Assembly: GCA_951804945.1 (NCBI GenBank)
Contig: OX638149.1
Span: 58,528,001 to 58,592,000, forward strand
Length of the DNA: 64,000 nucleotides
DNA from: Podarcis cretensis
Lineage: Eukaryota
Direction: 5' to 3'
Below the pieces are notes generated by a model. The model saw only the letters and a list, made by a program, of their open reading frames with translations, was not told where the DNA came from and did no database searches. Positions 29,289-48,873 of this stretch are shown here, piece by piece. Positions within the stretch are counted from its first letter, which is position 1, and each line of letters starts with the position of its first letter. A program made the position numbers and the translations under genes.

Positions 29289-29520
29289 AGATCGAATGAG
29301 AACCTCTGTCAATGTTGTGGGCGATTCCTTTGGAGCTGGCATTGTCTATCACCTCTCCAAGGCAGAGTTGGAAAACATTGATGCCCATCACAAAGGACAC
29401 GAAGATATTGAAATGACCAAGACACAGTCCATTTATGATGACATGAAAAACCACAGGGAAAACAACTCAAATCAGTGTGTTTATACAGCCCACAACTCTG
29501 TCATAATAGATGAGTGCAAG
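29289..29520 (+). CDS. SLC1A2: SLC1A2 exon 10 ([12 protein letters not shown]...IIDECK)
   Basis: gcag acceptor, GTACCT donor, 232 bp. Confidence 0.97.
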
Positions 29521-29559
29521 GTACCTTTCACATTTATGGATATTGAGACTTGCATCTAG
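29521..29559 (+). CDS. SLC1A2: SLC1A2 GLT-1b/EAAT2b C-terminus by read-through of exon 10 ([12 protein letters not shown])
   Basis: In-frame extension matching the mammalian GLT-1b tail VPFPFLDIETCI. Confidence 0.92.
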
Positions 29560-31779
29560 TCAATCATACCTCATCTTCCTTTGTTTTTTAACCTGCATGT
29601 ATTTTTTTAAAAAATGTATCACTAATAATGGGACAATGCTGCATGCTATGTTGATCAGTTTAAAGACGTGGGTACATATATTGTTTGCTTTCTTTGAGTA
29701 TTTAAATTGCTAATGCATGCCATGTTTACAAATAACATTGCGTTCTACAGGGTGTTTTGGAAGGCAGTGCAATGCAATGGGGGAATATTGTCCAGTTAAG
29801 CATTCTTACAGCTTTCCATTACAAGAAAGGTTGCAAATCCAGTTAATAAGGCCTATAGATAAATAGGAGAATTGATGCTGTGGCAATGAGAACGGTTAAA
29901 ACTGCCTAAAAACAAAAAAAGTCTCCACCATTTTCTCCTCCAGATCAGAGCAATTCTGTTGCCTTTGTGTGTTTGGAGAATCCATGATGGACCAGCTACC
30001 ACATTTAAAGCCCTGCTGAGTAGCTATAGCCTGAACAGGAGGCTTTTCCTCTCTGTTGGCATCTTCTGTTTCTTTCCTTCCCCTCTCATGGACCGCAGGT
30101 GGGGAAGGGGGTCAACAACACCAATTCCAGGGGTGACATAGTTTGGGGGCTTTTGGGGAAGTGTGTCAGGGGAACGAGGGGACTTGAAATCCTGTAGGTC
30201 CATGACCTCCCCCAACATGCCTCCTGAACTCCATGATTCAGACCACACCACCGATGGAACACAACTGACAGGCCATACCAGAGGATCTCCAGCATCGTAA
30301 GTGTGACTCTGCTGGAGGCCTTCTCTTTCCACTGGTGGAATGGCACTTCCTCCACTTCTTCTCATCCCTCGGCCAACCAAATGTGATTTTGGCCTTTTAA
30401 ATGATATTTAAAAGTGACAGTTCAGAGCGCAAGATAGTTAACTGTTTGGAAACAGAAGTTCAGTCAAATCCAGAGATTTTTCTTGTGCATCCCACAGGGA
30501 GGAGCAGAAGCAACACAAAAGTCATTTGTTTCAGTGGGTTATGTTCCAGGAGCCTGCCATTTTCCCAAGTAGAAAAAGGCAGAAATTGGAAGCACACTTC
30601 CTTGCTTCTTTTGAAATCAACGGCAGATACTTCCAAGTGAACGTAATTAAGATCAGGCTGTAAGGAACCTGGAGGAGAAAATATGAAGCTGTTTCTATTT
30701 ATATACAGTTAGGGGAAGCAAAGATAAGCACAAGAAAGAAGCACATTCTCATGCTTCCCCTGACACCCAAATAAATGCAAAGCCTGTCCTTTTGTGGATC
30801 GATGCTTTCCATGACACACTGTAGAGACACATGCACTGTACCTCGTCCTCAGCAACTGAGAGCTCTTGTGCTCGCCGTAATATTTATGCTTTATTTTCAT
30901 TTTCATTGTGGGCCATTCCAATGCCATTTTTGTGATTTCTGTCTATTGCTGTTTGTAAATTACTTGGTATAAGAAGAGATTATAACAAGAATTGTCCTGA
31001 CCAAGAGTTACATGAACTTGAGAAAACTCCATGGCTGAATGAGAAACTAATTTGGATGCATTGCATCTTGCTTCCAAACTCATCCTTGTGGATACATCAC
31101 TGTTGTTTAGCATGTTGTCTGAATGCAGCCATTGACGAGACTGGGCCTGGCTGGAGAATTGAACTGAACAAACGTTTTTCTTTAGGTAGATCTACAGTTT
31201 TCCCTAATGTGCTGTCATTAAAGGATTTCCATAGCCATTTCAGATTTTGATTAATGTTTCAGCTGGATAGTCATCAAGCTCACTTACTTGATACTGATAT
31301 TTCTAAGTCCCAGTAGGGAGAACAGGGGAGAGAAACCATTGATGGCTGCGTACAACATCAGGTTTCTAAAATCACACAAGTAATTTAAAAATAACAAAGC
31401 TTTGCCTGTAACTAAAAACAATCTGACAGAAAGGCTTTATAAATATGCCAGTTCTAAAGAAAGGCACCATTGCTCTGACATTATGCCTAGGACCTGAGTT
31501 TATTTCTCTGAAGTAGGCATCTACTGTTTTAAACATTTCTCAGATCACATAGTTATGTATAATAATAAAGTGTAGAAGAATCCCATGGTTAAAAAATTGA
31601 GCCCCTTTGAGTTAAGCACATAGTTCAGTCATGCTCATTTAAATACTGCATATTGAAAATCTGGACAGAAAAGTTGTTGAGCCTTTTTAAAATTATTATT
31701 TTAAGTTTTGACCAAACTTTTTGAGTCTTTTTGCATGCAAAGTCTCATCAAACATCACTGAAAACGACAATGCCAACAG

Positions 31780-31893
31780 GGGTTGCCATATGTCCGGATT
31801 TCCCCAGACATTTCAGCGATTCCTGCTCAGACTCAGTTTCCAATTGCTGATTGCCAGCTATGTACAGGAAATTCCAGATGTGTGGCAACCCTA
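31780..31893. mobile_element. Small MITE
   Basis: TIR GGGTTGCCA...TGGCAACCC. Confidence 0.5.
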
Positions 31894-32364
31894 TTAAATT
31901 TGTCTGGATTATTCTTGATAAGTTTAAAAAATTACAAGCAGCGCAGAAAAGTAAGTGAATGAAATTGTAGAAAATGCCCTGCAAGAGAAAAGTTTGCTGC
32001 AACTCTGGTCAGTGGTTGTTGTTGTTGTTTCTTTGTCTCAAGTATTAATATAATGACATGTCATTTCTACTTAATATTCTAAACAGCTTCCTAGTTTGAT
32101 TGCTTTGCACAGCTAATATATGCTTTATTAGCAAGCTATGTCGATTGTTGTTGCATGGGCTGTTTTTCTGTATTATTTTTTAAAATCACAATTCACATTA
32201 CTTCCTTTGCAAACTAACCTATAATTTCAGTTCCAAATATGTGGTGTATTCTGTTCTTTATAATGCATGTGTTTCCCTTTTAATTATCTAAGAAAGAGGC
32301 TGGCTTTGTTTCAAACATGGGTACATTGTCATGATTTCATGTCCCAATGCTCCCATGCGTCCAG

Positions 32365-32400
32365 TTTGTCCATCATGTGGAATATCAGTCCTGTCTTTAA
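32365..32400 (+). CDS. SLC1A2: SLC1A2 GLT-1c-like alternative terminal exon (FVHHVEYQSCL*)
   Basis: ccag acceptor in phase 0, compatible with the exon 10 donor; peptide aligns with the recalled mammalian GLT-1c tail SLHYVEYQSWV. Confidence 0.75.
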   Translation, partial: FVHHVEYQSCL

Positions 32401-33240
32401 GTTTTCATGCGAAGCTGAGGACAGTAACATGAAAGGTAAGCTAGGAAATAATGGGGTTCTGTTTAGAATTAGATGAAAGACTCCCTTACTATGTAAAGGT
32501 CCAGTTCATTTCTGCCCAGTCAAACAAGCACATTGGCCATTTTGGCTTATCTAGCCATGCATAGCACATCTCCACTGGGGAAAAAAGATGGCGCTTGGCT
32601 GGCTGTGGGGTTGTTGTTTTTTTCCTTTAGAAAAAATATTGACTGCTGAGATGTTGCTTACAAGCCAGTATTTCCCATGGAATGATTTACCATTCTTGGT
32701 CTTCCACAATTGTTATCAAGTTAACATTGAAGTGTGAACCTTTAGCTGAGACTCTGATATGGTTGTTTGTGGTTTTGTATGTAAAATGCAGCCTTGTTAA
32801 GTATGGTTTGACTCAGTTGTAACTGCACCTTCAACATTACACGATCGGACACAGTAGTGAACAGTGATGTTTCCCAGCAGGTCCTTGTGGAGGATCAATT
32901 CTGCCGTTTACTGTTTAGCTTTTTGTAACATATGTGCATATGTATGTGTGTATGATTCACATATGTATGTGTATCTCTGTGCACATCAGGCCTATAGACC
33001 TGATTTCTCAACATTCTGCTTTGCGGACAGAGCACTGTTGTAATTTTGAGTTCTTCCTGCAGATTGAGAAACATTGAAAGGGCAGAACTGATTCAGTACA
33101 AAATAAAAACACGTATGTATATTTTCACACATAGATTTAATGTAAATCTTGTAAATATTCAGTTTTGCTGTTTAATTCTTGACATTTCTCGCAAAAGTGC
33201 CTTGAACTTTAAGTTAGGTGTTGATGACAATTATTTACAG

Positions 33241-33315
33241 GTCACCCTGGCAACAAACGGCAAATCTGCAGACTTCAATGCTGTTGAAGAAGAACCTTGG
33301 AAACATGAGAAATAA
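33241..33315 (+). CDS. SLC1A2: SLC1A2 exon 11, GLT-1a C-terminus (VTLATNGKSADFNAVEEEPWKHEK*)
   Basis: ttacag acceptor; matches the EAAT2 tail [23 protein letters not shown]. Confidence 0.96.
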   Translation, partial: VTLATNGKSADFNAVEEEPWKHEK

Positions 33316-47887: not shown

Positions 47888-47966
47888 CTCCTTCGACTGT
47901 TCACAGCAATGCAAACACCAAGTATCAATGCCAGTGCCAAGAGAGAAGCAACTACAATAAGCCAAT
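47888..47966 (-). CDS. CD44: CD44 transmembrane exon ([27 protein letters not shown])
   Basis: acag acceptor, GTAAGG donor, 79 bp; near-identical to the CD44 TM segment. Confidence 0.97.
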
Positions 47967-48873
47967 CTGTGGGTGGAAGTTCAAGGGAGGGAAAAAAACA
48001 TGGAAACTTTTACTGGCTAGTCATCTGGATAGAGAGTTGACACAGTAGTTGACATAGTATCATTAATAACCCCACTTTATTTCCTTAAAGGACCCATGCT
48101 TATTGTTCTCTTTCAATGTATGAAGCAACAGAGTGAGGTTTCCTCTCAGGTCTGGCTCACAAATATTCTTTCCTCCCCTGCATGCCCATATAAATGGCAA
48201 AAATAACTGTATGGAGACTCTTTTGTGAGAAGTGGGAAGCATACAGAAACCTGATCATAACAGCTGGTACACAGCACTGCTGTGACTAAGAAAATGGCTG
48301 CTGGTTGTTTCCAGGTTCTTCCTTTGTTGTGCTAATATTTCTCCACAAGGCTGTGTATCCACATACAAGGCTGCATGAAGTAAATACGTGCAAGGAACTA
48401 GCATGGTGCTGCAATATTATTTATAAAGATGGGTTCAGCCAGGTGCCTGCCCCCGCCCCTGGACTCCCCATCTCTGACCCAGATAGGATAAGCTAGCAAA
48501 CAACGATGGTGCTGAAAAGAAACAGTAATAGCTGCTGCCTCCTGCTTCCTCACAGGCTCTGTCTGGCAGTGGCAACTAGCAACAATGACACTGAGGGAGA
48601 CCAGTGAGAGCGACTTGCCCCCGGGCTCCCCAAGAACTGATAACTAAGTTCCTGAGACTTTCCCTCCTGTTTCCTGCTACACGGACCTTGCAAATACATG
48701 ACAAAAATGAAGCCACTTTATAATGAATCTGGTGGCCAATGTAACCAAGTGTTTTCCTTGTCTGCCTGGCAGAAGATCCTGAAATGTAAGGTGACGGTCT
48801 TGCCTAGACTGAACCTTTAACTTAATTTCTCAGTATTTAACCTAAGAAGTTCTACACGCAAAGCATCTGGAGC

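What the first reader, a model, noticed from the sequence alone, without database searches (positions are those of the whole stretch)
32365..32400. Hidden GLT-1c-like terminal exon: all three GLT-1 C-termini appear to predate the mammal-reptile split
A phase-0 acceptor in intron 10 is followed by FVHHVEYQSCL*. It has the same length as, and shares H-x-VEYQS with, the GLT-1c tail I recall from mammalian retina (SLHYVEYQSWV). It ends in a class I PDZ ligand (S-C-L). The ORF track misses it, and I know GLT-1c only from mammals. Inference: this isoform has been conserved since the amniote ancestor and is functional.
Basis: partly seen in the sequence, partly recalled or inferred. Interest (0 to 1): 0.7.

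Follow-up and report, generated by a model that had tools for sequence, protein, structure and literature searches.

The report
Ancient alternative tail of glutamate transporter
This lizard's glutamate-transporter gene carries a small extra exon that matches a rare protein tail known from mammals and also annotated in birds, frogs and lungfish, so it is likely far older than reptiles and mammals, though its use in lizards is still untested.

Summary
In intron 10 of a lacertid-like SLC1A2 (GLT-1/EAAT2), an AG at 32363-32364 opens FVHHVEYQSCL-stop. It is the best match to the mammalian third tail among 8,622 AG sites in the window. It is probably not a terminal exon. The only perfect splice donor of the intron lies 35 nt after the stop, giving a 71-nt cassette, and a mouse table lists a 71-nt Slc1a2 cassette at the matching place. 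Inclusion in a lizard was not shown: eight contig sets from related lizards show junctions that skip it. All eight instead splice in a second, 50-nt cassette that gives an IEKH-stop tail, already annotated in lacertids. In mouse retina the 71-nt exon had 0 inclusion against 116 skipping reads, which speaks against photoreceptor enrichment. Verdict: a reptile orthologue of a known minor isoform, with a corrected anatomy and a deeper age.

The parts
29289..29520 (+). SLC1A2 exon 10, common to all tails; ends in phase 0 after ECK
   Evidence: tblastn; spliced contigs end exactly here
29521..29559 (+). GLT-1b tail by read-through into intron 10 ([12 protein letters not shown])
   Evidence: identical tail in reptile, bird and frog proteins
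32320..32364 (+). Conserved intron flank and T-poor acceptor of the c exon
   Evidence: 11 of 15 residues identical to a stork model that starts 45 nt upstream; T fraction 0.25 against 0.45-0.5 at three other acceptors
32329..32376 (+). Five YCAY motifs across the acceptor, a candidate NOVA repression site
   Evidence: densest 50-nt YCAY window of intron 10; 16 of 6,395 sampled windows reach 5 or more; function inferred
32365..32400 (+). Coding part of the c exon: FVHHVEYQSCL*, ending in S-C-L
32365..32435 (+). Predicted full 71-nt cassette exon; donor AAG|gtaagc 35 nt after the stop
   Evidence: only perfect-consensus donor in intron 10, one of 5 on the + strand of the window; Anolis and rattlesnake models end an inserted exon at its homologue; 71-nt mouse cassette
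32442..32472 (+). Three UAG motifs just after the donor (weak Musashi candidate)
   Evidence: only such cluster in intron 10; mouse data do not support a role
33063..33112 (+). Second cassette exon (50 nt) giving the tail IEKH*, stop 35 nt before its donor; holds an AATAAA at 33102
   Evidence: both junctions in 8 of 8 laid runs; tail in 5 lacertid proteins
33241..33315 (+). Exon 11 coding part, GLT-1a tail
   Evidence: junction 29520 to 33241 in 8 of 8 runs

Best explanation
This is the lizard copy of the GLT-1c exon of SLC1A2, an 11-codon alternative tail also annotated in mammals, birds, frogs and lungfish, and it likely works as a rarely included 71-nt cassette exon that would give the transporter a PDZ-binding end. 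Shown: the open 11-codon frame, phase, position, conservation and downstream donor. Inferred: exon 10 is spliced to 32365, translation stops at 32400, and the donor after 32435 joins exon 11 as 3' UTR. The stop lies 35 nt before the last junction, so the mRNA would escape nonsense-mediated decay (50-55 nt rule, textbook knowledge). Inferred and weaker: the T-poor acceptor and its YCAY cluster keep the exon skipped in most neurons through NOVA, so it is a minor isoform that would anchor GLT-1 trimers to PDZ scaffolds.
For: Best of 8,622 AG sites; 2 of 2,000 null introns. c tails in 33 of 376 proteins: 29 are 11 residues long, 4 are a stork form with 15 extra residues, and 24 have S/T at -2. A mouse table lists a 71-nt cassette between a 229-nt exon 10 and exon 11, with flanks of 3,061 and 675 nt against 2,844 and 805 here (PMC4991804 supplement 3). 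An Anolis model read in another frame matches 26 of 33 residues through the donor. 0 substitutions in the 71 nt against 31 in 693 flanking nt in two related lizards (p=0.046; up to 2 differences of run X7 were not listed); 1 in 159 against 30 in 605 for a wider window chosen after seeing the data (p=0.006). A review places EAAT2c in intron 10 with a PDZ-binding end (PMC6033743), at about 1% of hippocampal GLT-1. NOVA at YCAY in or upstream of an exon causes skipping (PMC10987577).
Against: What the lizard contigs do join are forms that skip this exon (8 of 8 runs). No lepidosaur (0 of 53) or turtle/crocodile (0 of 66) protein fetched has the tail, though only part of each cluster was listed. 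The 36 coding bases alone show no significant constraint (0 of 36 against 31 of 728, p=0.22). The review describes EAAT2c as losing exon 11, that is as terminal. The mouse 71-nt exon was matched by length and position, not by sequence. All 9 bird tails lack S/T at -2. The YCAY count was made after the site was known, and no NOVA data for this exon were found.
Confidence: 0.78

Rival explanations
1. Same exon, but used as a terminal exon: the transcript runs past the donor to a polyA site such as the AATAAA at 33102, as the first reader and a review describe.
For: Review wording. AATAAA at 33102. Contigs of runs X5 and X7 run unbroken through 32184-33090 and 32299-33090.
Against: Perfect donor 35 nt after the stop; homologous donor used in Anolis and rattlesnake models; 71-nt cassette listed in mouse. 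Those two contigs begin upstream of the acceptor, so they are unspliced there. Both forms can coexist.
Confidence: 0.3
2. A photoreceptor switch: the exon is repressed by NOVA/RBFOX in brain neurons and included in photoreceptors, which lack them and express Musashi.
For: GLT-1c is reported in rat and human photoreceptors (PMC3872404). Mouse photoreceptors lack NOVA and RBFOX, and UAG clusters are enriched after their exons (PMC4991804). YCAY cluster, an upstream UGCAUG at 32264 and three UAGs after the donor.
Against: Mouse wild-type retina: inclusion reads 0,0,0,0 against skipping 36,27,27,26; photoreceptor-less Aipl1 retina: 2,0,0,1 against 14,15,11,58. Slc1a2 does not occur in the Msi1/2 knockout splicing lists that could be read, nor as an exon row in the retina-exon supplements of PMC9303857. 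UAG spacing is not the reported 10-15 nt.
Confidence: 0.2
3. In squamates the element is kept for a splicing or other regulatory role and the c peptide is no longer made in useful amounts; the IEKH cassette has taken over as the alternative.
For: Constraint extends beyond the coding bases; the intron flank is conserved with stork; 0 of 53 lepidosaur proteins carry the tail; Anolis and rattlesnake models use other acceptors with the same donor.
Against: The lizard peptide is 8-9 of 11 identical to frogs and 8 of 11 to lungfish, with length and S-x-L end kept. The two Anolis differences in the coding part are, by the fewest changes, one V-to-I and one silent change in the c frame (my reading). 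A roughly 1% isoform is easily missed by annotation.
Confidence: 0.13
4. Chance short ORF after an intronic AG.
For: 15 of 228 AG sites in the intron are followed by exactly 11 codons and a stop.
Against: Score rank and null; frog and lungfish identity; matching mouse exon length and place.
Confidence: 0.01

Closest known systems
GLT-1c / EAAT2c (Rauen et al. 2004; seen only as a cited title and through reviews PMC6033743, PMC3872404)
   Same: Exon in intron 10 joined after ECK; 11 residues; 6 of 11 identical to the mammalian third tail; S-x-hydrophobic end.
   Different: Described as replacing exon 11; here likely a 71-nt cassette. Ends S-C-L as in frogs and lungfish, not S-W-V. Expression in lizard not shown.
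Unnamed EAAT2 isoforms in public annotation of frogs, lungfish and birds (e.g. P0121, P0130, P0319, P0054)
   Same: Same place, same length, 6-9 of 11 identical.
   Different: Bird tails end L-C-L or H-C-L and so lose the class I S/T. None of these records is named GLT-1c.
GLT-1b / EAAT2b
   Same: Short alternative tail with a class I-type end; reported to bind PSD-95, PICK1 and DLG1.
   Different: Made by read-through of the exon 10 donor, not by a separate exon; unrelated sequence.
Lacertid EAAT2 isoform ending IEKH (P0160, P0161, P0162, P0164, P0167)
   Same: Cassette in the same intron whose stop also lies 35 nt before its donor.
   Different: No PDZ-type end; seen only in lacertids here; directly supported by junction contigs.

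Membership tests
SLC1A2 / EAAT2 | Protein identity and 11-exon layout | tested here: met
   Exon 10 is 87-99% identical to named EAAT2 proteins; exons 2-11 map in order; exon 1 was not located in the window
GLT-1c / EAAT2c | Unique exon spliced from intron 10 after exon 10, phase 0 | tested here: met
   Position and phase; mouse exon of equal length and similar place
GLT-1c / EAAT2c | Sequence orthology with the mammalian third tail | tested here: met
   6 of 11 with five mammalian proteins, bridged by frog and lungfish; the name for that peptide is recalled, no paper read prints it
GLT-1c / EAAT2c | Replaces exon 11 (terminal exon) | tested here: inconclusive
   Donor and mouse cassette suggest exon 11 stays as UTR; a terminal form is not excluded
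GLT-1c / EAAT2c | Spliced mRNA exists in this lineage | tested here: inconclusive
   Not seen in 8 contig sets of unknown tissue; contigs drop rare forms
GLT-1c / EAAT2c | Photoreceptor expression and glutamate transport | not testable with these tools
   No lizard tissue labels; the mouse table shows no retinal inclusion
Class I PDZ ligand | C-terminal X-S/T-X-V/I/L | tested here: met
   S-C-L-stop; consensus from the abstract of PMC4381219 in a search listing
Class I PDZ ligand | Binds a PDZ domain | not tested
   No binding prediction or assay was run

The most novel reading that the evidence does not exclude
Intron 10 of lacertid GLT-1 is a four-way tail switch. The c exon is a cassette dating at least to the lungfish-tetrapod ancestor, with its stop placed to escape decay, and birds rewired its PDZ end. 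Lacertids added a second cassette of the same design (IEKH-stop) that rivals or exceeds GLT-1a, so much of their transporter lacks both the a tail and any PDZ ligand: a natural test of what the GLT-1 tail does.
Probability: 0.45. Interest if true: 0.5.

Novelty: new member of a known kind. Interest (0 to 1): 0.33.

Why it matters
GLT-1c is treated as a rare mammalian variant of unclear role. Conservation to lungfish argues that it is selected, not splicing noise, and points to frogs, where it is often annotated, as a model. The cassette anatomy changes how it should be assayed: probes in exon 11 or its UTR would count c (and IEKH) transcripts as GLT-1a. The effect on the field is modest because the tails already sit in public gene models.

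Tried and rejected
RNA search: no holder on record as RNA was listed. I laid 8 of the 23 listed runs (five studies, five coded organisms, tissue unknown, all contigs). They hold exon-exon joins, and a loose end equal to the end of exon 9, so they contain spliced RNA. No joint 29520 to 32365 or 32435 to 33241 was listed; contigs drop rare forms, so this is no evidence of absence. Uncovered parts of the intron in X4, X5, X6, X7 and X16 were not interpreted. Search for a c tail in ray-finned fish: 0 of 17 named proteins, 4 of them without the ECK anchor; the lungfish-tail search added no new fish, so the age beyond lungfish is open. Paper search for the peptide motif gave 3 irrelevant hits. Rauen 2004, Bassan 2008 and Sogaard 2013 were not held. 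EAAT2c in PMC2873418 is a teleost paralogue, not this isoform. NOVA2 knockout supplements held no Slc1a2 row, but only 6,916 characters were available. Other odd annotated tails gave no convincing match to intron 10 apart from the Anolis model and, weakly, the rattlesnake model. The IEKH exon region has one match in the genome, giving no sign of a repeat origin. No earlier scan findings were returned. No fold or complex job was run: an 11-residue tail and no vertebrate PDZ partner at hand.

Full report
Observation. The window holds exons 2-11 of SLC1A2 on the + strand. Its exons are closest to lacertid proteins among eight squamates compared (579 of 607 aligned residues for Podarcis raffonei, 568-570 for Lacerta and Zootoca, 525-557 for the others, some over shorter alignments). 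Exon 10 (29289-29520) ends in phase 0. Read-through gives the b tail, exon 11 at 33241 the a tail. At 32365 an AG is followed by FVHHVEYQSCL-stop. Against the placental tail it is first of 228 AG sites in the intron and of 8,622 in the window; 2 of 2,000 Markov-simulated introns reach its score. It is not chance.

Age. Three protein searches and three cluster look-ups fetched 376 proteins. By the tail after ECK, 224 are a-type, 47 b-type, 33 c-type, 5 IEKH, 32 other and 35 lack the anchor. The c-type set is 5 mammals (SLHYVEYQSWV; opossum SLHLVEYQSWV), 9 birds, 18 frogs and 1 lungfish (SPRHVEYQSCL). The lizard peptide is closer to frogs (8-9 of 11) and lungfish (8) than to mammals (6), so S-C-L is likely ancestral. 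All 9 bird tails lack S/T at -2. The a and b tails occur in ray-finned fish; c was not found in 17 fish proteins. So c dates at least to the lungfish-tetrapod ancestor (over 400 million years, date recalled). These are mostly predicted gene models, and only 120 of 575 hits and at most 15 members per cluster were listed. None of 53 lepidosaur and 66 turtle or crocodile entries has the tail.

Anatomy. An Anolis Ensembl model (P0361) inserts an exon that reads this element in another frame: 26 of 33 residues match the window up to 32435. A rattlesnake model (P0079) ends a 12-codon insert at the same point, with 6 of 12 matching. Position 32435 is followed by the only perfect-consensus donor in intron 10, one of five on the + strand of the window. 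Acceptor to donor is 71 nt. After deriving this I found in supplement 3 of PMC4991804 a mouse Slc1a2 cassette of exactly 71 nt between exon 10 and exon 11, at 0.80 of the intron against 0.76 here; I matched it by length and place, not sequence. The stop lies 35 nt before the last junction, inside the 50-55 nt zone that escapes nonsense-mediated decay (textbook knowledge). In two related lizards the 71 nt carry 0 listed substitutions against 31 in 693 flanking bases (p=0.046); the coding 36 nt alone are not significant (p=0.22). The 45 intronic bases before the acceptor translate 11 of 15 like a stork model that starts there.

RNA. No run on record as RNA was listed. Eight of 23 listed runs were laid. 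All eight join exon 10 to exon 11, and all eight join exon 10 to an unexpected 50-nt cassette (33063-33112) and on to exon 11. That cassette gives IEKH-stop, again 35 nt before its donor. Its junction contig holds 0.32-0.78 of the summed depth of the two exon 10 junctions, a rough figure because contig depth measures expression poorly. The tail is in five lacertid proteins. The c junction was not listed, which contigs cannot turn into absence; in rat hippocampus c is about 1% of GLT-1.

Mechanism. Best reading: a weak, usually skipped cassette that swaps in an 11-residue PDZ-type tail. The acceptor is T-poor and carries the densest YCAY cluster of the intron, where NOVA binding causes skipping (PMC10987577); this step is inferred. 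I tested a photoreceptor version of the idea and the data went against it: 0 inclusion against 116 skipping reads in wild-type mouse retina, 3 against 98 in photoreceptor-less retina, and no Slc1a2 row in the readable Musashi knockout lists or as an exon in the retina-exon supplements. This sits uneasily with antibody reports of GLT-1c in rat and human photoreceptors, which may reflect species difference or low level. Binding to scaffolds is by analogy with GLT-1b and untested.

Literature seen. Passages: PMC3872404, PMC10867268, PMC8076567, PMC2873418, PMC6033743, PMC3735546, PMC4991804 (plus supplement rows), PMC10987577, PMC4490284; reference lines only: PMC5608761; supplement rows or searches only: PMC9509328, PMC9303857, PMC4930328; search listing only: PMC4381219. 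Rauen 2004 and Reye 2002 were seen as titles, Holmseth 2009 as an in-text citation; the Reye title shows that two GLT1 variants were already studied in chicken retina. Searches for GLT-1c outside mammals (40 of 56 hits listed, 20 of 7,130) showed no title or abstract start describing it; subscription papers are largely missing. I did not search the literature for the IEKH isoform.

Verdict. A real orthologue of a known minor isoform, older than proposed, probably a cassette and not a terminal exon, with lizard expression unproven. New member of a known kind; interest 0.33.

Noticed in passing
window 33063-33112: 50-nt cassette giving an IEKH-stop tail; both junctions in 8 of 8 runs, rough share 0.32-0.78; annotated only in lacertids among 53 lepidosaur proteins; 0 differences in the contig pieces listed for X1, X2, X5, X6 and X16.
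   Followed up: partly
window 32184-33090: Runs X5 and X7 hold long unspliced contigs over the distal 0.8-0.9 kb of intron 10, including the c exon, at depth 17.8 and 9.7; they start upstream of the c acceptor. Unexplained.
   Followed up: no
window 29594-29719: Three UGCAUG (RBFOX-type) motifs within 200 nt after the exon 10 donor, 0.17 expected per 240 nt; may steer the choice between b read-through and splicing.
   Followed up: no
window 32291-32293: An upstream AG whose homologue starts the inserted exon of an Anolis Ensembl model; in this window that longer exon is out of frame and holds a stop.
   Followed up: partly
proteins P0052, P0054, P0055, P0058, P0085, P0257, P0258, P0334, P0335: Bird c tails end L-C-L or H-C-L, losing the class I S/T; stork models also use an acceptor 45 nt upstream that the lizard lacks.
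   Followed up: partly
window about 47890-47990, - strand: An exon-like hydrophobic stretch ending NSRRR resembles the CD44 transmembrane exon (recalled, not tested); it would match the tail-to-tail SLC1A2-CD44 order recalled from human.
   Followed up: no
window 31650-31900: Many unrelated contigs match here with loose ends, so this is likely a dispersed repeat fragment in intron 10.
   Followed up: no
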